In this document: positions 43,619 to 53,132 of the stretch, one piece after another
Layout of the letters: each line of letters begins with the position of its first letter
How positions within the stretch are numbered: the first letter of the stretch is position 1
Sequence record: PV435126.1
Direction: 5' to 3' (one strand)
DNA from: Escherichia phage EPFV3-03/2025
DNA: 64,000 nucleotides
Notes under the pieces: generated by a model
The model's database searches: none
Seen by the model: the letters and a program-made list of their open reading frames with translations, nothing else
Told to the model about the DNA's origin: nothing
Translations under genes and position numbers: made by a program

Positions 43619-44902
43619 CTATTCCAGAACCTCCCAAGTGTCTGGATTAACATTTCGGACGCAGATACCGACAGGGAATTGGTAGTTGTTGTCTTCTGTC
43701 CTTGCTTGATATTTAAAGGTGACAAACTTGCCGATCATTTCCTGCATCCTGCCATAGCTACGCTCCTCGTGCGTGCCTTTCATCTTCATTTTAACAACGA
43801 TGCCTTCCTTGTCAACGCAGATAAGAACACCCTCATCATTCTTATCTTTCTCAACGTCAATAACTTTCACCTCTGCGTCGTTGAACTTTTTCCATTTCAA
43901 TGCTTCAGATGTTCGCTGACCGTATTCGTATTTACCACAGAAGTTACGCATGATAGTACCTTCATACCCTTCGGACATGAATACACCAACAGATTCTTCG
44001 CAATGATCAACTGTGTACGCAATCTCTGCGTCAACAACCCTGATATGGTCAAGCATCAGAGTGGTAATGGTATCTTCTGCATCCATAAGATCCTTGCAGC
44101 GTCCAGACTCTGTTTCTGGATCCCACCACACCTTGTCACTAGGGATATCAAAAATGTGATACTCTAAGTCATAGCTACAGTACCCTCCGTAACGCAAATC
44201 ATCACGAACAGGCTCAACATCAACAGGAATATCTACCTTATTGAAGTTTTTGTATGTTGATAAGCCTGCCTTAATTGCGGCATGACGGCGTTTTTTATCT
44301 GCCTCGTAGTCTTTATCGATCTCGGCCTGAATCTCTTCCTGTGTGCGCCACCGTTTAGCAAGAGACACTATTTTCTGCAGAGGCAGACCATGAATATAGA
44401 TCTCTCCGTCGAGCTGTTTAATCCCGGTGGTGAAGTGGAAAGAACGAAGTTGCTCCAGAAGCTTTCCTTGAATAGGGTAGGACTTATTACCACGGGAAAT
44501 AAATTTAGGCTCCCCATTTTGGAAAACAACAAGTAGACGAAGGCCATCTAACTTACGCAAGATCCAGCAAGGTAATTTAAGTGCCTTTCCACGCTTCAGG
44601 TAGTCATGCACCAGCATGGGTAAAAGGTCAACGCCCTGCTCGCAATCTTCCATATTTTCAACATACCCCAGACGGACTTGTTTTTCCCACTTACTGATCG
44701 CTTCCAGCTCAGCCTGTTGCTCAGCTGTAGTTTCATTGGCACGACCCACGTTCTTAGGTGTGCAGATCGTCTCTTTGTATTGCAGTTTACCATCAAGCTT
44801 GCCAAACTCTACGATAACCTTATCACCATCCGTGAATACTTTCCACTGTTGGTAGCTGTCATCTTTGTTCAGTGCGTACAGTGTTGTTTTGATCTGATGC
44901 AT
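43619..44902 (-). CDS. ATP-dependent DNA ligase
   Basis: Motif I RKLDGLR (KxDGxR), motif IV-like EGYEGTIMR, motif V-like LKWKKF, about 90 aa OB-like tail. Confidence 0.6.
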   Translation of the reverse strand: MHQIKTTLYALNKDDSYQQWKVFTDGDKVIVEFGKLDGKLQYKETICTPKNVGRANETTAEQQAELEAISKWEKQVRLGYVENMEDCEQGVDLLPMLVHDYLKRGKALKLPCWILRKLDGLRLLVVFQNGEPKFISRGNKSYPIQGKLLEQLRSFHFTTGIKQLDGEIYIHGLPLQKIVSLAKRWRTQEEIQAEIDKDYEADKKRRHAAIKAGLSTYKNFNKVDIPVDVEPVRDDLRYGGYCSYDLEYHIFDIPSDKVWWDPETESGRCKDLMDAEDTITTLMLDHIRVVDAEIAYTVDHCEESVGVFMSEGYEGTIMRNFCGKYEYGQRTSEALKWKKFNDAEVKVIDVEKDKNDEGVLICVDKEGIVVKMKMKGTHEERSYGRMQEMIGKFVTFKYQARTEDNNYQFPVGICVRNVNPDTWEVLE

Positions 44903-46258: not shown

Positions 46259-47020
46259 TTACAGTTCCATAAAGTTTTCTACGATGTCAATAAATGTTTT
46301 ATCAGAGAAAGCGTCAACCGCCCCGTTAAACCAAACTGGGATGCCGCGATCCTCATACTGGTAAATGTCACTACGTGAAATGCCATTCTCCCCTAAATGC
46401 TGTGAGTCGTATTTGTTAACGATCAGTAGTTTAGTCCCCTTATTACAGGCAGGGAATAGCTCCCAGTTAAAATTGATAACTGTGTTGGAGCACCCTACAA
46501 GGATAACCATATCATTGCTCGTCAGAGAAGTCAACAGGTCATACATGTCTACATACTTTGGAGCTACTTCTCCGAAGAACACTACATTAGGCTTGACCCA
46601 AGTATACTCGCTTGCATCTACCTCAGAGTATCCAATGTCTTTAATTACGTCATTCCCTTCATCATCCTCATAAACTATTTCTGGCAAATACCCGTGGACA
46701 TGCAAAATATCTTCATGTTTTACACCAGCACGCTCCAGCAAATCATCTACATTGGTGGTCAGGTTGATCACACGACCAGACCAGCGGGAATACCACTCAG
46801 CGATCCGGAGATGTGCAAGGTTAGGCTCAACACTCCCCAAAGCTACACGCCGTGCATTGTAAAAGTCATGTACCTTATAGTAGTTCTTGGCAAAGGTGTG
46901 GATGTTACACACCTCATCGATGCTGAAATTCTCCCACATTGCAGTGCCACCAGATCGGAAAGTTGGGATACCAGATTCAGCGCTCAAACCAGCACCGGAG
47001 ATAATGATCAGTCGTCGCAT
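46259..47020 (-). CDS. Sir2-family (sirtuin-like) NAD-binding protein, apparently lacking Zn-ribbon
   Basis: GAGLSAESGIPTFR, TNVDDL, HVHG and VVFFGE motifs; no CxxC pairs. Confidence 0.7.
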   Translation of the reverse strand: MRRLIIISGAGLSAESGIPTFRSGGTAMWENFSIDEVCNIHTFAKNYYKVHDFYNARRVALGSVEPNLAHLRIAEWYSRWSGRVINLTTNVDDLLERAGVKHEDILHVHGYLPEIVYEDDEGNDVIKDIGYSEVDASEYTWVKPNVVFFGEVAPKYVDMYDLLTSLTSNDMVILVGCSNTVINFNWELFPACNKGTKLLIVNKYDSQHLGENGISRSDIYQYEDRGIPVWFNGAVDAFSDKTFIDIVENFMEL

Positions 47021-47028
47021 AAGTGTCC

Positions 47029-47379
47029 TCAGTAGATGTTTTGTTTAATCTCTATTCCAAACTTTTTAAACGAGTCAGCAGCAAGCATGAATTTACGAGC
47101 CGCTGATGGGTTAGAAGTATGCACGAAAATCTTCACGTTGTCAACTACAGGAGGCTTACCAAATACAAATTTTTCTTCCAGCATAGATAGGCAATCGTAC
47201 CCTTCAAATACCTCTCCAAGGTCGTTGTCCATGTGCCACTCAGAAACGCGCCTGTAGAGCTTTCCCTTATCGTTAATAAAATCAATAAACTCAGAGGAAT
47301 TCTTTAGCCAAAGAGCATCTGGGAGCCCATAATTTGACGGATCTCTCAAGTCATCCAGCCACACAATCAACTTCTTCAT
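47029..47379 (-). CDS. hypothetical protein (116 aa)
   Basis: Coupled between RNA ligase and Sir2-like genes. Confidence 0.5.
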   Translation of the reverse strand: MKKLIVWLDDLRDPSNYGLPDALWLKNSSEFIDFINDKGKLYRRVSEWHMDNDLGEVFEGYDCLSMLEEKFVFGKPPVVDNVKIFVHTSNPSAARKFMLAADSFKKFGIEIKQNIY

Positions 47380-48311
47380 TGCATATAGTCCTCGTTGTGG
47401 AAATAGCAGTCAAGTATCTCACGGCGTTCCTGCTCCAGGAGGCAATTCCACACATCTTCTGTGTAGTTTCTACGAATGAAGTTTACCATGCCGTAAAACT
47501 CTTCGTCAACACGTTTAAAGATATCATCATCCCAAATCTTCCAAGCTCTACCCCTCATTACGACCTTCCGTGCCAGATAGTAGGGAGACTTGATCTTTAG
47601 TTGCAGGTCATAAGGGTAGTAAGACTTACGGATCATATACCCTTCGCCCCTTGTTTCTGCAGCCAACTCTTTTGCATAGCTGAACGGAATTTCACGCACA
47701 GTGTGAGGACGTTTTGCACCAAGGTATTTGGCAATACCGTCTAAAGCTGCTTCTGGTAGCATTATTCCAGAATCATTGTATCGGCAACCGATCAAATAGG
47801 CACCATGATCTTCCTGAACAATATGCGGGTCTGAAGGGTGACAAATTTCAAACATGAATGTCATGTTTTCATGGCCCATAACCTTCTTGATAAGATCTAA
47901 ATTACCACATTGCTCCTGGATTGTTTCCTTTGCGAGGTTACAATATGGAGAATCAAGAGACCCTGTTGTTGAGAACAACAGTTCACCTTTGTGAGATGAT
48001 ACCACACCAAGGAATCCGTTCTTTTTCTCTACCGCCGTCACAAGTTTATTGTCAGGCAGGTTGGTGGAATTTTCTCCCAAGTTAAATACTTTTGTGAAGG
48101 GCCATGCCACAACATTTCCTTCATTACCGACAACAATTCCTCGGCACTCTAGTAAACGCGGAGACAAATGCCATAGATTGTTGTAAAATACTTTTCTGGC
48201 ATATTTATAGATCTTTAACCCAAGATCTGGATAATACCGACTGGTTACAAGACCTTTATCCACTAAATCATCTGCATTAAAATACTTCATCATACATTCC
48301 TCGTTTGTCAT
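47376..48311 (-). CDS. ATP-dependent RNA ligase (nucleotidyltransferase ligase without OB domain)
   Basis: Motif I EKKNG, motif IV EGYMIRK, motif V LKIKS; divergent from PNK kinase/phosphatase genes. Confidence 0.55.
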   Translation of the reverse strand: MTNEECMMKYFNADDLVDKGLVTSRYYPDLGLKIYKYARKVFYNNLWHLSPRLLECRGIVVGNEGNVVAWPFTKVFNLGENSTNLPDNKLVTAVEKKNGFLGVVSSHKGELLFSTTGSLDSPYCNLAKETIQEQCGNLDLIKKVMGHENMTFMFEICHPSDPHIVQEDHGAYLIGCRYNDSGIMLPEAALDGIAKYLGAKRPHTVREIPFSYAKELAAETRGEGYMIRKSYYPYDLQLKIKSPYYLARKVVMRGRAWKIWDDDIFKRVDEEFYGMVNFIRRNYTEDVWNCLLEQERREILDCYFHNEDYMQ

Positions 48312-48411
48312 TTTGTCACTCTATCTTGCCACACAAATAAACTAGTGTCAACACTTGAAATGAACAAAAGAGTTATGTATACTACCATTAAAATTAAAAC
48401 GGAGGATTACT

Positions 48412-48822
48412 ATGTCTAAAATGCTGTATATCGTGCGTGGTCTACCAGGTTCTGGCAAATCAACACTGGCAAATGCACTATCTTTAGAGGGGCTGTACCC
48501 ACATTTTGAGAACGACATGTTCTGGTACGACGACGATGGAAATTACAACTGGGATGCAAGTAAAGTAACACTTGCAGCAAAATGGTGCAAAGATAACGTA
48601 GAAGATATGATGCGTATGGGATACGACCGTGTCGTGGTAAGTAATACGTTTACAAAAGAAAAACATGTGCAAGAATATGTTGACATGGCAATCAGTCATG
48701 GGTATAGTTATACTGTGATCGTGGTTGAAAACCGCCACGGTAATAAGAGCATTCATGATGTTCCAGATAGGGTTGTGGACCGTATGGAGCGTGAGCTTAA
48801 AAACTGCATTAAACTAAAATGA
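48412..48822 (+). CDS. polynucleotide 5'-kinase-like P-loop kinase
   Basis: Walker A VRGLPGSGKSTLA resembles T4 Pnk kinase domain; no fused phosphatase. Confidence 0.6.
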   Translation: MSKMLYIVRGLPGSGKSTLANALSLEGLYPHFENDMFWYDDDGNYNWDASKVTLAAKWCKDNVEDMMRMGYDRVVVSNTFTKEKHVQEYVDMAISHGYSYTVIVVENRHGNKSIHDVPDRVVDRMERELKNCIKLK

Positions 48823-48829
48823 GGGATGT

Positions 48830-49384
48830 ATGAAATATTTTGTAACAAGCGATACACACTTTCTCCACCAGCGAGTCATGGAGTTTGATTCATGTCAAAA
48901 ACACAGATCTCAGTATGATCACAATCTTGACAGTATGAACGAAGGAATCATTGCAGAGTGGAACTCTGTTGTATCACCAGAAGACACTGTGTTTCACTTG
49001 GGCGATATTGCATGCACTAAGGATAAGAATATCAACAACTTATTTCCAGATATTCTAAATATGTTGAACGGACATATTATTCTTGTTCGTGGTAACCATG
49101 ACACAAGGACGACTGTCAGAATTATGAAAGAGTTCGGTCATGAGGTTGTAGATTATTACGAGCTTCGCCACAACAAGAATTTGATCTGTATGAGCCATTA
49201 CCAGTTTGCAAAGTGGAACAGAAAGCCTCACGGATCAGTCCAACTGTTCGGTCATGCTCACGGAACCACACAGCAGTTGTTTGGCAGGCAGTTTGATGTC
49301 GGTTGGGATGTGTGGGGGAGACTCTTACCATTAGAAGAGGCATACCGTATTGCAATGAGTCTTGCTATTGACAGCGGGGAGTAA
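48830..49384 (+). CDS. calcineurin-like metallophosphoesterase
   Basis: SDTHF (DxH), GDIACTKD, GNHD, GHAHG motifs. Confidence 0.7.
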   Translation: MKYFVTSDTHFLHQRVMEFDSCQKHRSQYDHNLDSMNEGIIAEWNSVVSPEDTVFHLGDIACTKDKNINNLFPDILNMLNGHIILVRGNHDTRTTVRIMKEFGHEVVDYYELRHNKNLICMSHYQFAKWNRKPHGSVQLFGHAHGTTQQLFGRQFDVGWDVWGRLLPLEEAYRIAMSLAIDSGE

Positions 49385-52223: not shown

Positions 52224-52319
52224 AATATTTTCTTGACAAACTTTGCTTAACAGTGTAATATTGTAAACATGGTCTCCCACCTTTTCTGGCGGCTCAGGTG
52301 TAAAAGAAAGCCACCCAGT

Positions 52320-52394
52320 GCCCTGTTAGCTTAGTGGATAAAGCAGCGGCCTTCTAAGCCGTTGACACTGGTTCGAGTCCAGTACGGGGTGCCA
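52320..52394 (+). tRNA. tRNA-Arg (anticodon TCT)
   Basis: Manual cloverleaf: 7-bp acceptor GCCCTGT/ACGGGGT, 4-bp D-stem, anticodon loop CTTCTAA, T-loop TTCGAGT, CCA encoded. Confidence 0.75.
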
Positions 52395-52398
52395 AATT

Positions 52399-52485
52399 GG
52401 GGAGTTATCCCGTAGAGGTAGCGGTGTAGACTGTAAATCTATTGTCATTGCGACTCGGGTGGTTCGACTCCACCACTCCCCACCA
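52399..52485 (+). tRNA. tRNA-Tyr (anticodon GTA), long variable arm
   Basis: Acceptor GGGGAGT/ACTCCCC, anticodon loop CTGTAAA, T-arm GGTGG-TTCGACT-CCACC, CCA encoded. Confidence 0.7.
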
Positions 52486-52599
52486 AATTTATATTTTTAA
52501 ATGCATAAATCATACAGATAATGACATTGATATTTATCGTCGTTTATACTAGTCACTAACTGCTCGAAAATCAGTGTCATTATCAGTGTAATTTATAAA

Positions 52600-52690
52600 G
52601 GAGGGTAGGGAGCAATGGTGCTCAAGCGGTCTTGAAAACCGTCCCGTTGAGGATGACTCGATGATGGTTCGATTCCATTACTCTCCGCCA
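52600..52690 (+). tRNA. tRNA-Ser (anticodon TGA), long variable arm
   Basis: Acceptor GGAGGGT/ACTCTCC, anticodon stem GCGGT/ACCGT with loop CTTGAAA, T-loop TTCGATT, CCA encoded. Confidence 0.7.
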
Positions 52691-52788
52691 CATTGTTGAC
52701 CTTGTAATTAAGCGAAAGCCGGAAGCAGAACCGGATTATCAAATGTTACAGTCGTCATCGCCGACTAGCCACATGGTCAACATATTGC

Positions 52789-52887
52789 GCTAGGTAAGCC
52801 CTTTGGCAAGGGCGAGGATTTTTAATCCTGAAAATAGACGAGGTAGTCGTTGAATACATAGGTGGTTCGATTCCATCACCTAGCACC
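52789..52887 (+). tRNA. atypical tRNA-like gene (possible anticodon TTT) with about 30-nt insertion before T-arm
   Basis: Perfect 7-bp acceptor GCTAGGT/ACCTAGC, D-arm GCCC-TTTGGCAA-GGGC, T-arm GGTGG-TTCGATT-CCATC, but 4-bp anticodon stem and over-long variable region; CCA not fully encoded. Confidence 0.45.
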
Positions 52888-52892
52888 TTTTT

Positions 52893-52968
52893 GCTGATGT
52901 AGCACAATTGGCAGTGCAATTGATTTGTAATCAATAGGTTGCAGGTTCGAGTCCTGCCATCAGCACCA
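52893..52968 (+). tRNA. tRNA-Thr (anticodon TGT)
   Basis: Acceptor GCTGATG/CATCAGC, D-stem GCAC/GTGC, anticodon stem ATTGA/TCAAT loop TTTGTAA, T-loop TTCGAGT, CCA. Confidence 0.8.
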
Positions 52969-52969
52969 T

Positions 52970-53044
52970 GGCCCTGTAGCTGGAAGGTTCAAGCAAGCGA
53001 CTCATAATCGCCAGACGGTGGTTCAATTCCACCCAGGGCCACCA
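52970..53044 (+). tRNA. tRNA-Met (anticodon CAT; Ile-lysidine type not excluded)
   Basis: Acceptor GGCCCTG/CAGGGCC, anticodon loop CTCATAA, T-arm GGTGG-TTCAATT-CCACC, CCA. Confidence 0.7.
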
Positions 53045-53055
53045 AATAATAAATA

Positions 53056-53132
53056 CTCCGCGTAGCTCAGCTTGGTAGAGCGCCTGATTTGGGATCAGGA
53101 GGTCGAGTGTTCGAATCACTCCGTGGAGACCA
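53056..53132 (+). tRNA. tRNA-Pro (anticodon TGG)
   Basis: C1-G72 acceptor CTCCGCG/CGTGGAG, D-arm GCTC-AGCTTGGTA-GAGC, anticodon stem CCTGA/TCAGG loop TTTGGGA, T-loop TTCGAAT, CCA. Confidence 0.8.

What the first reader, a model, noticed from the sequence alone, without database searches (positions are those of the whole stretch)
52789..52887. Atypical 99-nt tRNA-like gene with a 30-nt insertion before the T-arm
It has a perfect 7-bp acceptor stem, a canonical D-arm and a canonical T-arm, but only a 4-bp anticodon stem around a TTTTTAA loop, then about 30 nt containing a small hairpin (ACGA-ggtag-TCGT) before the T-stem. CCA is not fully encoded, unlike its six neighbours. It could be a decaying pseudo-tRNA, a tRNA with an unusually long extra arm, or a tRNA-like structure with another role.
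Basis: seen in the sequence. Interest (0 to 1): 0.45.

Follow-up and report, generated by a model that had tools for sequence, protein, structure and literature searches.

The report
Conserved oversized phage tRNA-like gene
This is a real, evolutionarily maintained tRNA-shaped RNA gene found only in rV5-like (and one N4-like) phages; it has a 31-40-nt insert with a swappable hairpin where normal tRNAs have 4-5 nt and, in this phage, a lysine-type anticodon arm, so it is either an unusual spare tRNA-Lys or a tRNA mimic, and nobody has described it.

Summary
The window is an rV5/FV3-like Vequintavirus, and 52789-52887(+) lies in a promoter-driven seven-gene tRNA cluster. It is not a decaying pseudogene: 25 distinct copies from five Vequintavirinae genera, an N4-like podovirus and metagenomes pair in 500/500 cells of the acceptor, D, anticodon and T stems. 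Eleven of 20 pairs show compensatory changes, including the tertiary G19:C56 to U19:A56 pair. A family covariance model separates members (91-121 bits) from all ordinary tRNAs (29 bits or less), with one copy per genome and none in 185,579 bacterial and archaeal genomes. The family hallmarks are non-canonical: an A-rich 5' linker, a hairpin that is exchanged like a cassette, an invariant AAUACAUA 3' linker, A8/U14, and an anticodon arm 1-2 nt too short. The loop triplet differs by clade (UUU here; UAU, UCC/GCC, UCA elsewhere) and changes together with the discriminator as E. coli identity rules predict (UUU+A73 = Lys; UCC+U73+G1:C72+C2:G71 = Gly). Best reading (about 0.4): a chargeable, non-canonical tRNA-Lys-like RNA acting in the conflict over host tRNA-Lys. 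Main rival (about 0.3): an anticodon-independent tRNA-scaffolded mimic. GenBank calls it tRNA-Lys, tRNA-OTHER, tRNA-TERM or nothing.

The parts
52789..52887 (+). Whole tRNA-like gene (99 nt to the encoded CC)
   Evidence: ARAGORN tRNA-???. Rfam tRNA 35.5 bits. Family model R1 104.9 bits, E=5.5e-25. Orthologues annotated tRNA-Lys / tRNA-OTHER / tRNA-TERM / nothing.
52789..52795 (+). Acceptor stem, 5' strand (GCUAGGU); pairs with 52878-52884
   Evidence: 7/7 pairs. Across 25 copies 100% paired; 5 of 7 pairs show double-sided changes. G1:C72 in 23/25, C2:G71 in 25/25.
52796..52797 (+). Positions 8-9 (A8 A9); A8 is invariant where tRNAs normally have U8
   Evidence: Alignments A3/A5: A8 and U14 invariant. 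Neighbouring Arg, Thr and Pro tRNAs have U8/A14.
52798..52813 (+). D arm: GCCC / UUUGGCAA / GGGC (G18 G19 = 52805-52806)
   Evidence: 4/4 pairs; 3 of 4 covary (GCCC, GACC, GCGG, GCAG). G19 changes to U together with T-loop C56 to A in 7 copies.
52815..52829 (+). Anticodon-like arm, 15 nt: AGGA-UUUUUAA-UCCU (4 bp + 7 nt; triplet UUU at 52821-52823) or AGGAU-UUUUA-AUCCU (5 bp + 5 nt)
   Evidence: Stem covaries (AGGAU/AUCCU, AGGUC/GACCU, GGGC/GCCC). Arm is always 15-16 nt, never the canonical 17. The stem top plus loop is 10/11 identical to E. coli tRNA-Lys(UUU).
52830..52836 (+). 5' linker G-AAAAUA (A-rich, semi-conserved, unpaired)
   Evidence: GAAAAUA in 14/25 distinct copies; the others are GAAAAAUA(C/U), GAAAA(AUG), GUAAAACA, GAAAAC.
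52837..52851 (+). Variable-region hairpin GACGA-GGUAG-UCGUU (cassette-like)
   Evidence: A hairpin in every copy, 16 distinct sequences. Compensatory A-U to G-C in Avunavirus. Identical bodies carry unrelated hairpins, and divergent bodies share one hairpin type.
52852..52860 (+). 3' linker GAAUACAUA; AAUACAUA invariant in all 25 distinct copies
   Evidence: Invariant columns in A3/A5. No intramolecular partner found; complement not enriched in the window.
52861..52877 (+). T arm GGUGG-UUCGAUU-CCAUC (C56 = 52868)
   Evidence: 5/5 pairs, 100% paired in 25 copies. 51:63 shows U-A to C-G. C56 covaries with G19.
52878..52887 (+). Acceptor 3' strand ACCUAGC, discriminator A73 (52885), encoded CC (52886-52887); the terminal A is not encoded
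   Evidence: A73 occurs only in Vequintavirus copies; U73 or C73 elsewhere. Full CCA is encoded in Seuna-, Mydo- and Henunavirus and N4-like copies.
52888..52892 (+). UUUUU spacer to tRNA-Thr(UGU), which starts at 52893
   Evidence: Flagged as terminator-like by the consensus scan.
52233..52261 (+). Context: sigma-70-type promoter TTGACA-17-TAATAT upstream of the tRNA cluster (a second, weaker one lies at 52521-52550)
   Evidence: Consensus scan, 10/12 matches. Consensus match only; not shown to be functional.
52320..53132 (+). Context: tRNA cluster Arg(UCU), Tyr(GUA), Ser(UGA), the element, Thr(UGU), Met/Ile2(CAU), Pro(UGG)
   Evidence: ARAGORN, Rfam.
47376..49384 (.). Context: RNA end-healing/sealing genes. 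Rnl1-family RNA ligase 47376-48311(-), P-loop kinase 48412-48822(+), metallophosphoesterase 48830-49384(+)
   Evidence: Pfam PF09511 56.8 bits, PF13671 43.4 bits, PF00149 27.2 bits. The ligase is present across the subfamily.

Best explanation
SHOWN: the element is a genuine, single-copy, phage-specific gene for an L-shaped tRNA-like RNA. It has a class-I-type tRNA body (7-bp acceptor, 4-bp D stem with G18G19, 5-bp T arm). Its variable region is expanded to 31-40 nt (A-rich linker, exchangeable hairpin, invariant AAUACAUA linker), and its anticodon arm is 1-2 nt short. It lies inside a promoter-proximal tRNA cluster. INFERRED: it is transcribed with the tRNAs, cut out by RNase P and 3' exonucleases, and completed to CCA by the host CCA-adding enzyme. 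MECHANISM I COMMIT TO (inferred, about 0.4): in this phage clade the RNA is a non-canonical but chargeable lysine-type tRNA. It carries both E. coli LysRS identity elements (UUU triplet and A73). The top of its anticodon arm is a near copy of host tRNA-Lys(UUU) with the A41-to-C change that blunts AriB cleavage. It therefore acts in the conflict over host tRNA-Lys, the favourite target of PrrC, PARIS/AriB and Schlafen-type nucleases. It would do so either by supplying AAA/AAG decoding when host tRNA-Lys is cut, or by competing for the nuclease. The shortened stem and bulky variable region would alter nuclease recognition. The conserved linkers and swappable hairpin point to an additional function independent of the anticodon that I cannot assign.
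For: Real and selected: 25 distinct copies, 500/500 stem cells paired against 34-47% when partners are slid; 11/20 pairs with double-sided change, including tertiary 19:56 (GC 18, UA 7). A discrete family: R1 scores 91-121 bits for members and 29 or less for ordinary tRNAs, with one copy per genome. Phage-only: 0 hits in 185,579 genomes. Found in Vequinta-, Avuna-, Seuna-, Mydo- and Henunavirus, an N4-like Schitoviridae phage and metagenomes, always inside tRNA clusters. Promoter upstream. Lys reading: loop UUUUUAA with U33, UUU and A37; 10/11 identity to the verified E. coli tRNA-Lys arm top. A73 occurs only in this clade. E. coli lysine identity = anticodon triplet + A73 (PMC9976931). The parallel Gly set (UCC/GCC, U73, G1:C72, C2:G71) in Seuna/Mydovirus copies shows that triplet and discriminator change together. 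tRNAscan-SE-based records call it tRNA-Lys-TTT. There is no other tRNA-Lys in the cluster, and Lys is 7.2% of codons in long ORFs. AriB site U36AAUC|A41; A41C 'substantially inhibits' cleavage, and the element reads UAAUC-C. tRNA-Lys(UUU) is a target of PARIS and of a bacterial Schlafen. An Rnl1 ligase, kinase and phosphoesterase lie within 5.5 kb.
Against: No clade has a canonical 5-bp + 7-nt anticodon arm. Here the stem is 4 bp, and the unmodified RNA is predicted to close to a 3-nt loop. Orthologues have 8- or 6-nt loops (Seuna/Mydo) or A33 (Henuna/N4-like), so decoding cannot be the family-wide function. Seunaviruses already carry a canonical tRNA-Gly(UCC). A8/U14 and the long linkers are unprecedented, and a clash with LysRS, EF-Tu or the ribosome is untested. 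Avunavirus copies (UAU with U73/C73, no CCA) do not fit any identity set. The phage's own tRNA-Thr(UGU) keeps the intact AriB site, so the cluster is not generally PARIS-proofed. The Rnl1 kit is subfamily-wide and does not track the Lys state. V18 and JES2013 have lost the gene. There are no expression, charging or phenotype data.
Confidence: 0.4

Rival explanations
1. Anticodon-independent tRNA mimic or scaffold. The tRNA body serves only to get the RNA processed, CCA-tailed and stabilised, and perhaps to dock on a tRNA-binding host factor. The functional parts are the invariant AAUACAUA linker and the exchangeable hairpin, which bind or titrate a host or phage partner such as a tRNA-targeting defence protein. 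The Lys-like loop here would be incidental or a secondary adaptation.
For: AAUACAUA is invariant in 25/25 distinct copies while every helix covaries. Identical bodies carry unrelated hairpins (identity 0.35-0.50, against 0.44 +/- 0.09 for shuffles). The type-2 hairpin (GAACUAACAGUAC) is 91% conserved between bodies only 89% alike, including an N4-like podovirus. The loop sequence is not conserved and is never canonical family-wide. Seunaviruses already have tRNA-Gly(UCC). mascRNA is a precedent for a non-chargeable tRNA-like RNA acting through a synthetase (PMC9976931).
Against: No partner has been identified. The linker complement is not enriched in the window. A scaffold role does not explain why the discriminator and triplet co-vary according to aaRS identity rules, nor why a 26/44-type junction and an A37-like purine are kept in all loops.
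Confidence: 0.3
2. Recoding tRNA: a suppressor or frameshifter whose odd loop (8-nt loops, or UCA with a long extra arm) reprograms decoding of particular phage or host codons. The rV5-type copy would be a derived Lys reader.
For: Henunavirus, N4-like and three metagenomic copies read Y-A-UCA-A-A, and two GenBank records call them 'tRNA-TERM / suppressor'. Seuna/Mydo loops have 8 nt around UCC/GCC, like classical +1 frameshift-suppressor tRNAs (my own knowledge, not tested here). The tRNA-Sec model is the best Rfam match for these copies.
Against: The tRNA-Sec scores (23-40 bits) are below the gathering score of 47 and no better than those of ordinary class II tRNAs. Position 33 is A, not U, in the UCA group. 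The 7/5 acceptor/T layout, 4-bp D stem and U73 are not Sec-like. No recoded genes are known in these phages, and I did not test for them. The window copy has neither UCA nor an 8-nt loop.
Confidence: 0.05
3. Cis-acting structural element of the tRNA operon: a processing platform for RNase P/E, or an attenuator or terminator, with no trans function.
For: It always lies within tRNA clusters, 2-7 nt from a neighbouring tRNA. The T arm and acceptor followed by UUUUU is flagged as terminator-like. The A/U-rich linkers resemble RNase E sites (my own knowledge).
Against: The U-run is specific to Vequintavirus; other genera have CCA plus a varied trailer. A processing element would not need G19:C56 covariation, a discriminator, CCA, or an invariant internal linker. 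Its position within the cluster differs between genera (before Thr here, after Thr/Ile/Arg elsewhere).
Confidence: 0.07
4. Decaying tRNA pseudogene that acquired a junk insertion.
For: It has an atypical length, a 4-bp anticodon stem and an incomplete CCA. Most annotators missed it or labelled it OTHER. It was lost by deletion in V18 and JES2013.
Against: 100% pairing with 11 compensated pairs across 25 distinct copies. The insertion itself is conserved in architecture and partly in sequence across genera and virus families. Family members score 91-121 bits.
Confidence: 0.02

Closest known systems
[quoted passage not shown]
   Same: Encoded in a lytic-phage tRNA cluster. Carries a UUU triplet and A73. 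Differs from host tRNA-Lys at position 41 of the AriB site, as T5 tRNA-Lys does (A41C).
   Different: The T5 tRNAs are canonical 76-nt cloverleaves with point changes. This RNA keeps U39 (the change that abolishes cleavage in T5 is U39A), has a 4-bp stem, A8/U14 and a 31-nt variable region. Its orthologues in other genera are not Lys-type at all. No functional data exist.
Class II (long-variable-arm) tRNAs: bacterial tRNA-Leu, tRNA-Ser, tRNA-Tyr
   Same: An extra hairpin lies between the anticodon and T arms. Tyr and Ser are the best non-family matches of the family model within this window, though only at 25 bits.
   Different: The body is class-I-like (4-bp D stem, 8-nt D loop). The hairpin is held by 6-9 and 8-10 unpaired conserved nucleotides instead of 1-2. 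The triplets are not Leu, Ser or Tyr. C2:G71 is an antideterminant for E. coli SerRS.
tRNA-Sec (RF01852) and allo-tRNAs (8/4, 9/3 cloverleaves; PMC5389517)
   Same: Long extra arm. UCA triplet in the Henunavirus and N4-like copies. The tRNA-Sec model is the best Rfam match for the non-rV5 copies.
   Different: 7/5 acceptor/T layout, 4-bp D stem with an 8-nt loop, U73/A73, A33, and scores below the gathering threshold. The window copy has UUU.
T4 'species 1' and 'species 2' stable RNAs (rnaC, rnaD)
   Same: Small stable RNAs of unknown function encoded at the end of a phage tRNA cluster. rnaC has a canonical T arm plus extra hairpins.
   Different: Not homologous: R1 gives 7.2 bits (E about 0.6) for rnaC and no match covering rnaD (only a 21-nt antisense stretch at 2.7 bits, E = 9.4). 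rnaC and rnaD lack a full cloverleaf with a D arm and a 7-bp acceptor.
Non-decoding tRNA mimics (mascRNA, bacterial YrlA Y-RNA tRNA-like module, tmRNA tRNA-like domain) and engineered 'tRNA scaffolds'
   Same: A tRNA-shaped fold exploited for processing and stability or for docking on tRNA-binding proteins, without a canonical anticodon loop (for mascRNA).
   Different: No Rfam match to these families at the element. It has no G3:U70 and no ORF (tmRNA). Its ends are at a true acceptor stem (unlike YrlA). The foreign hairpin sits in the variable region, not in place of the anticodon arm as in engineered scaffolds (my own knowledge).

Membership tests
Canonical elongator tRNA (Rfam RF00005) | 7-bp acceptor stem, discriminator, 3' CCA | tested here: met
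   7/7 pairs, A73, CC encoded (A not encoded). 100% paired in 25 copies.
Canonical elongator tRNA (Rfam RF00005) | D arm with G18G19 and T arm with UUCRANY, joined by the G19:C56 pair | tested here: met
   GCCC-UUUGGCAA-GGGC and GGUGG-UUCGAUU-CCAUC. 19:56 covaries GC (18) / UA (7) with no mismatch.
Canonical elongator tRNA (Rfam RF00005) | 5-bp anticodon stem plus 7-nt loop with U33 and purine 37 | tested here: not met
   The arm is 15 nt here (4 bp + 7 nt, or 5 bp + 5 nt) and 15-16 nt in all 25 copies. Rfam deletes position 27. Other clades have 6- or 8-nt loops or A33.
Canonical elongator tRNA (Rfam RF00005) | U8 / A14 tertiary pair | tested here: not met
   A8 and U14 are invariant in 25 copies. 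Neighbouring Arg, Thr and Pro tRNAs have U8/A14.
Canonical elongator tRNA (Rfam RF00005) | Variable region of 4-5 nt (class I), or a 10-24-nt arm with 1-2 unpaired bases at its foot (class II) | tested here: not met
   31 nt here and 38-40 nt elsewhere, with 6-9 and 8-10 unpaired linker nucleotides.
Canonical elongator tRNA (Rfam RF00005) | Score at or above the family gathering threshold (29 bits) | tested here: inconclusive
   The window copy scores 35.5 bits. Copies in other genera are not reported at the gathering threshold and match only the tRNA-Sec model, below its threshold.
tRNA-Lys(UUU) | UUU anticodon and A73 (E. coli LysRS identity set, PMC9976931) | tested here: met
   UUU at 52821-52823 in the 7-nt-loop register; A73 at 52885.
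tRNA-Lys(UUU) | Orthologues keep the same anticodon | tested here: not met
   Avunavirus UAU, Seuna/Mydo UCC or GCC, Henuna/N4-like UCA.
tRNA-Lys(UUU) | Charged by LysRS and active on the ribosome | not testable with these tools
   Needs in vitro charging and in vivo acylation assays.
Class II tRNA (Leu/Ser/Tyr) | Leu, Ser or Tyr anticodon, class II D arm, and an identity set (e.g. G2:C71 for Ser) | tested here: not met
   Triplet UUU. 4-bp D stem with an 8-nt loop. C2:G71 is invariant and is a SerRS antideterminant.
tRNA-Sec (RF01852) | 13-bp acceptor/T domain (8/5), 6-bp D stem with a 4-nt loop, UCA, G73, score of 47 bits or more | tested here: not met
   7/5 layout, 4-bp D stem, UUU, A73. 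The best family score against RF01852 is 40 bits, and the model does not match the window copy.
allo-tRNA (8/4 or 9/3 cloverleaf) | 12-bp acceptor branch split 8/4 or 9/3 | tested here: not met
   7-bp acceptor and 5-bp T stem in all copies.
tRNA pseudogene | Relaxed constraint: broken pairs and no compensatory change | tested here: not met
   500/500 cells paired, 11/20 pairs compensated.
T4 rnaC/rnaD stable RNAs | Sequence/structure homology | tested here: not met
   R1 with filters off gives 7.2 bits (E = 0.61) on rnaC and no match covering rnaD (only a 21-nt antisense stretch at 2.7 bits, E = 9.4).
tmRNA / YrlA / other Rfam tRNA-like families | Match to the family covariance model at the element | tested here: not met
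   No such match overlaps 52789-52887, even at E <= 10. The YrlA and permuted-tmRNA hits (25 and 17.4 bits) lie over other tRNAs, 52997-53109 and 53017-53096.

The most novel reading that the evidence does not exclude
A natural 'armoured' or scaffolded tRNA. Phages would use a tRNA body with an expanded variable region as a platform that is processed like a tRNA. The platform would display an exchangeable hairpin cassette and a clade-specific anticodon-arm mimic of whichever host tRNA is under attack (Lys in E. coli phages, Gly-like in Salmonella/Klebsiella/Cronobacter phages). It would serve as a decoy for, or a nuclease-resistant substitute against, tRNA-targeting immune effectors. This would be a new class of RNA-based anti-defence factor spread by recombination between phage tRNA clusters.
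Probability: 0.25. Interest if true: 0.85.

Novelty: new variant of a known kind. Interest (0 to 1): 0.62.

Why it matters
Phage tRNAs have recently been recognised as counter-measures to tRNA-cleaving immunity (PARIS, PrrC, retron Eco7, Schlafens). All examples so far are canonical tRNAs with point changes. This family would be the first whose architecture itself is remodelled: an expanded variable region, a shortened anticodon arm, A8/U14, a modular hairpin, and an anticodon arm that switches identity between host ranges. It is present in more than 150 sequenced therapeutic-candidate phages (rV5, FV3, PVP-SE1, the BASEL Vequintavirinae). Yet it is unannotated in the type genomes and labelled inconsistently elsewhere (tRNA-Lys, tRNA-OTHER, tRNA-TERM 'suppressor', or spurious CDS). 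That affects tRNA counts, codon-usage arguments and safety annotation. For tRNA biology it is a natural test of how much the variable region and the 8:14 pair can change while the L-shape stays under selection.

Tried and rejected
1. ARAGORN's fold (AUUUU/AAAAU stem, 8-nt loop, 4-base anticodon 'atcc'). Rejected: that stem does not exist in other genera, whereas AGG...CCU covaries.

2. Pseudogene. Rejected by covariation.

3. tRNA-Sec or suppressor membership. Scores are sub-threshold (23-40 bits against 47) and no better than the window's ordinary tRNA-Ser and tRNA-Tyr. The structural hallmarks are absent.

4. Serylation via the long arm. Unlikely: C2:G71 is an E. coli SerRS antideterminant and G73 is absent.

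5. Antisense 'seed' role for AAUACAUA. Its complement occurs 4 times in 64 kb against 2.7 expected, and one of the four is the element itself.

6. Pairing between the two linkers. Only an AUGU/ACAU pairing in a few Henuna-type copies; not conserved.

7. Homology to T4 rnaC/rnaD. None.

8. Ancestry of the core. It is 70-77% identical to many isotypes (Thr, Tyr, Gly, Leu, Ser), so no signal.

9. A PARIS-specific story. Weakened, because the phage's tRNA-Thr(UGU) keeps the intact AriB site.

10. Co-variation of the Rnl1 repair kit with the Lys-type state. None; the ligase is subfamily-wide.

11. Host or prophage origin. 0 hits in genome contigs.

12. Literature. The rV5 genome paper lists six tRNAs and omits the element. 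The BASEL label comes from automated tRNAscan-SE annotation. The tRNA-evasion, structured-RNA and identity papers do not mention it, and I found no transcriptome data.

13. One pattern hit (L029) was a chance match.
Full report

The window is from an rV5/FV3-like Escherichia coli myophage (Vequintavirus, Vequintavirinae). A 1-kb query around the finding is 98-99.7% identical to more than 100 such genomes.

ARAGORN finds seven genes at 52320-53132: Arg(UCU), Tyr(GUA), Ser(UGA), 'tRNA-???' at exactly 52789-52887, Thr(UGU), Met(CAU) and Pro(UGG).

- a perfect 7-bp acceptor stem;
- a GCCC-UUUGGCAA-GGGC D arm;
- AGGA-UUUUUAA-UCCU;
- 31 nt containing a GACGA-GGUAG-UCGUU hairpin;
- a GGUGG-UUCGAUU-CCAUC T arm;
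- A73, then CC followed by UUUUU. All six neighbours encode CCA.

Rfam's general tRNA model matches in the same register at 35.5 bits (gathering score 29), with a 26-nt insertion and one anticodon-stem pair deleted. The thermodynamic fold gives the same five helices (z = -3.66). A near-consensus sigma-70 promoter (TTGACA-17-TAATAT, 52233-52261) precedes the cluster.

2. IT IS A CONSERVED GENE, NOT A DECAYING ONE

Searches of GenBank phages, IMG/VR and metagenomes recovered 25 distinct intact copies. They come from:
- Vequintavirus, Avunavirus, Seunavirus, Mydovirus and Henunavirus;
- an N4-like Salmonella podovirus (Schitoviridae);
- uncultured contigs.

The copies always lie inside tRNA clusters. 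A scan of 185,579 bacterial and archaeal genomes found none.

On the 25-sequence alignment the acceptor, D, outer anticodon and T helices plus the G19:C56 tertiary pair are paired in 500 of 500 cells. Sliding the partners gives 34-47%. Eleven of 20 pairs carry double-sided changes. The inner anticodon-stem pairs covary as well.

The 19:56 pair is GC in 18 copies and UA in 7, and is never mismatched. This is probably a single event, but a compensated one. It shows that the L-shaped elbow is under selection.

A covariance model of the family scores members at 91-121 bits. Every ordinary tRNA in 254 kb of phage tRNA clusters scores 29 bits or less. There is exactly one copy per genome. The pseudogene reading is therefore refuted.

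Two Vequintaviruses (V18, JES2013) have lost the gene through a deletion that fuses the 5' half of tRNA-Tyr to its 3' part. So it is accessory, as phage tRNAs are.

3. ANATOMY OF THE FAMILY

(a) The body is class-I-like: a 4-bp D stem and an 8-nt D loop.

(b) Positions 8 and 14 are invariantly A and U, the reverse of the near-universal U8/A14. Positions 15 and 48 are U and A.

(c) The anticodon-like arm is always 15 or 16 nt, never 17:
- 4 bp + 7 nt (or 5 bp + 5 nt) in Vequinta-, Avuna- and Henunavirus;
- 5 bp + 6 nt (or 4 bp + 8 nt) in Seuna- and Mydovirus.

(d) The variable region is 31-40 nt. It has an A-rich 5' linker (usually GAAAAUA), a hairpin, and a 3' linker whose core AAUACAUA is invariant in all 25 copies.

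(e) The hairpin is structurally conserved: 16 distinct sequences, all hairpins. It behaves as a cassette:
- BIS47, GAP31 and FENT2 have 100% identical bodies, yet their hairpins are no more alike than shuffled sequence (0.35-0.50 against 0.44 +/- 0.09).
- Erwinia phage 55 and the N4-like phage differ by 11% in the body but share 91% of a hairpin with the conserved loop GAACUAACAGUAC.

HNH homing-endonuclease genes sit in these clusters. One is an unannotated ORF about 400 nt downstream of the element in PVP-SE1, and another is an insertion in phage WM. T4 likewise has segB inside its tRNA cluster. Endonuclease-driven gene conversion is a plausible, but untested, source of the mosaicism.

4. 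THE LOOP AND THE DISCRIMINATOR

Written as Y-N33-(N34-36)-A37-R38, the loop triplets by clade are:
- UUU in Vequintavirus (this window);
- UAU in Avunavirus;
- UCC or GCC in Seuna/Mydovirus (with one extra 5' nucleotide);
- UCA with A33 in Henunavirus, the N4-like phage and three metagenomic copies.

The loop is therefore not conserved as an anticodon, which argues against a single family-wide decoding role.

The changes are not random, though. According to the tRNA identity review (PMC9976931):
- E. coli lysine identity is the UUU triplet plus A73;
- glycine identity is U73, G1-C72, C2-G71, C35 and C36.

The Vequintavirus copies have UUU and are the only ones with A73. The Seuna/Mydovirus copies have UCC or GCC with U73, G1:C72 and C2:G71. 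Triplet and discriminator thus change together in the direction expected if the RNA is aminoacylated.

C2:G71 is invariant and is an antideterminant for E. coli SerRS. Serylation through the long arm is therefore unlikely.

Avunavirus copies (UAU with U73 or C73, no CCA) and the UCA/A33 group do not fit any identity set.

5. THE WINDOW'S COPY AND HOST tRNA-Lys

From G30 to C40 the host reads GA-CUUUUAA-UC and the element reads GA-UUUUUAA-UC, which is 10 of 11 identical.

Host tRNA-Lys(UUU) is a prime target of several defence nucleases:
- PrrC;
- PARIS/AriB, which cuts U36AAUC|A41;
- a bacterial Schlafen.

T5 escapes PARIS with a tRNA-Lys carrying U39A and A41C. A41C alone 'substantially inhibits' cleavage. 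The element reads UAAUC-C, so it has the A41C-type change but keeps U39 and U16.

The phage has no other tRNA-Lys. Lys makes up 7.2% of codons in its long ORFs.

Within 5.5 kb upstream it encodes an Rnl1-family RNA ligase, a P-loop kinase and a metallophosphoesterase. This is an end-healing and sealing kit of the kind T4 uses to repair PrrC-cut tRNA-Lys.

Two cautions apply:
- The ligase is subfamily-wide and does not track the Lys-type state.
- The phage's own tRNA-Thr(UGU) retains the intact AriB site.

So the evidence points to tRNA damage as a general selective pressure on these phages, not to PARIS specifically.

6. MOST LIKELY MECHANISM AND ITS RIVALS

Shown:
- It is a real, selected, phage-specific, L-shaped tRNA-like RNA gene with a remodelled variable region, sitting in a tRNA operon.

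Inferred:
- It is processed by RNase P and 3' exonucleases and completed by the CCA-adding enzyme.

My best explanation (about 0.4): in this clade it is a chargeable, non-canonical lysine-type tRNA. It either substitutes for nuclease-depleted host tRNA-Lys or competes for the nuclease.

The main rival (about 0.3): the anticodon arm is secondary, and the molecule is a tRNA-scaffolded mimic. Its invariant linker and exchangeable hairpin would engage an unknown partner.

The two readings are not mutually exclusive. The linker and hairpin conservation demands some function independent of the anticodon in either case.

Minor rivals:
- a recoding tRNA (0.05);
- a cis-acting operon element (0.07);
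- a pseudogene (0.02).

7. COMPARISON WITH KNOWN FAMILIES

As a family member, it fails defining features of each of these:
- Canonical tRNA: anticodon arm length, U8/A14 and variable-region form.
- Class II tRNAs: D arm, identity set and the foot of the extra arm.
- tRNA-Sec and allo-tRNAs: 7/5 layout, D stem, discriminator and sub-threshold scores.
- tmRNA and YrlA: no model match at the element.
- T4 rnaC/rnaD: the family model gives 7.2 bits on rnaC and no match covering rnaD.

Functionally, it most resembles either the T5-type nuclease-insensitive phage tRNAs or non-decoding tRNA mimics.

I found no description of it in the literature:
- The rV5 genome paper lists six tRNAs and omits it.
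- The BASEL 'tRNA-Lys' label is automated tRNAscan-SE output.
- Other records call it tRNA-OTHER, tRNA-???(atcc) or tRNA-TERM/suppressor, lay a spurious CDS over it, or leave it unannotated.

I therefore rate it a new variant of a known kind: a non-canonical tRNA or tRNA-like RNA.

8. VERDICT

- Observation: confirmed.
The long-arm tRNA and tRNA-like readings stand; the pseudogene reading is refuted.
- Interest: 0.62. The architecture, the cassette-like hairpin and the identity-coherent switching of the anticodon arm would surprise a tRNA specialist, and they connect to the current question of how phages counter tRNA-targeting immunity.
- Limitation: the function is untested, and the decisive experiments (mature ends, charging, deletion phenotypes on nuclease-bearing hosts) are straightforward.

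Noticed in passing
window 47376-49384 (also 46259-47020 and 43619-44902): An RNA repair gene set lies 3.4-5.4 kb upstream of the element: an Rnl1-family RNA ligase (47376-48311, -), a P-loop kinase (48412-48822, +) and a calcineurin-like phosphoesterase (48830-49384, +). A SIR2-family protein (46259-47020, -) and an ATP-dependent DNA ligase (43619-44902, -) lie further upstream. Many records annotate the ligase and its neighbours as 'hypothetical protein'.
   Followed up: partly
window 52600-52690: The phage tRNA-Ser(UGA) is itself atypical. It has A8, it is missed by the Rfam tRNA model, and it matches only the tRNA-Sec model at 41.5 bits (below the 47-bit threshold). The rV5 paper found it only with ARAGORN.
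   Followed up: no
window 52970-53044: The CAU-anticodon tRNA is called Met by ARAGORN and many records. tRNAscan-SE-based records label it Ile2 (lysidine type, codon AUA).
   Followed up: no
window 52486-52599 and 52691-52788: Two spacers of about 100 nt lie inside an otherwise tightly packed tRNA cluster. The first contains a promoter-like site (ATGACA-18-TATACT, 52521-52550), and one GenBank record annotates a repeat there. Neither Rfam nor the family model matches them.
   Followed up: no
L009 1644-2138 (PVP-SE1) and L061 991-1332 (phage VB-EcoM-WM): PVP-SE1 has an unannotated 164-aa HNH_3 homing-endonuclease ORF about 400 nt downstream of the element. In phage WM (and apparently YP-6) an HNH endonuclease insertion lies in the position of tRNA-Pro. 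T4 has segB in the equivalent cluster.
   Followed up: partly
L007 ~1177-1243 (V18), L011 ~1137-1228 (JES2013): Deletion variants join the 5' half of tRNA-Tyr to the 3' part of the element, removing Tyr, Ser and the element. The chimera cannot form an acceptor stem.
   Followed up: partly
GenBank MG0656xx records (e.g. H35-H38, H62-H64): Eighteen unannotated records named 'Campylobacter phage' carry sequence 99-100% identical to E. coli Vequintavirus across the tRNA cluster and the RNA ligase. This is probably mislabelling or contamination.
   Followed up: no
L004 1279-1398, L030 484-603, L035 484-579; Proteus phage Mydo record: Short 'hypothetical protein' CDS are annotated over the 3' half of the element in several Seuna/Mydovirus records. 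They are not conserved and are almost certainly spurious.
   Followed up: no
L039 412-511 (UNVERIFIED Salmonella phage 21): A degenerate remnant keeps the hairpin, the 3' linker and half of the T arm, but has lost the 5' body and the T-stem 3' strand (R1 14 bits).
   Followed up: no
window 52893-52966(-), 52970-53042(-), and loci L030-L053: Rfam 'Plastid-ycf2 5'UTR' matches (22-41 bits, below threshold) fall on the antisense strand of ordinary tRNAs. This is an artefact of that model containing a tRNA-complement-like fold.
   Followed up: no
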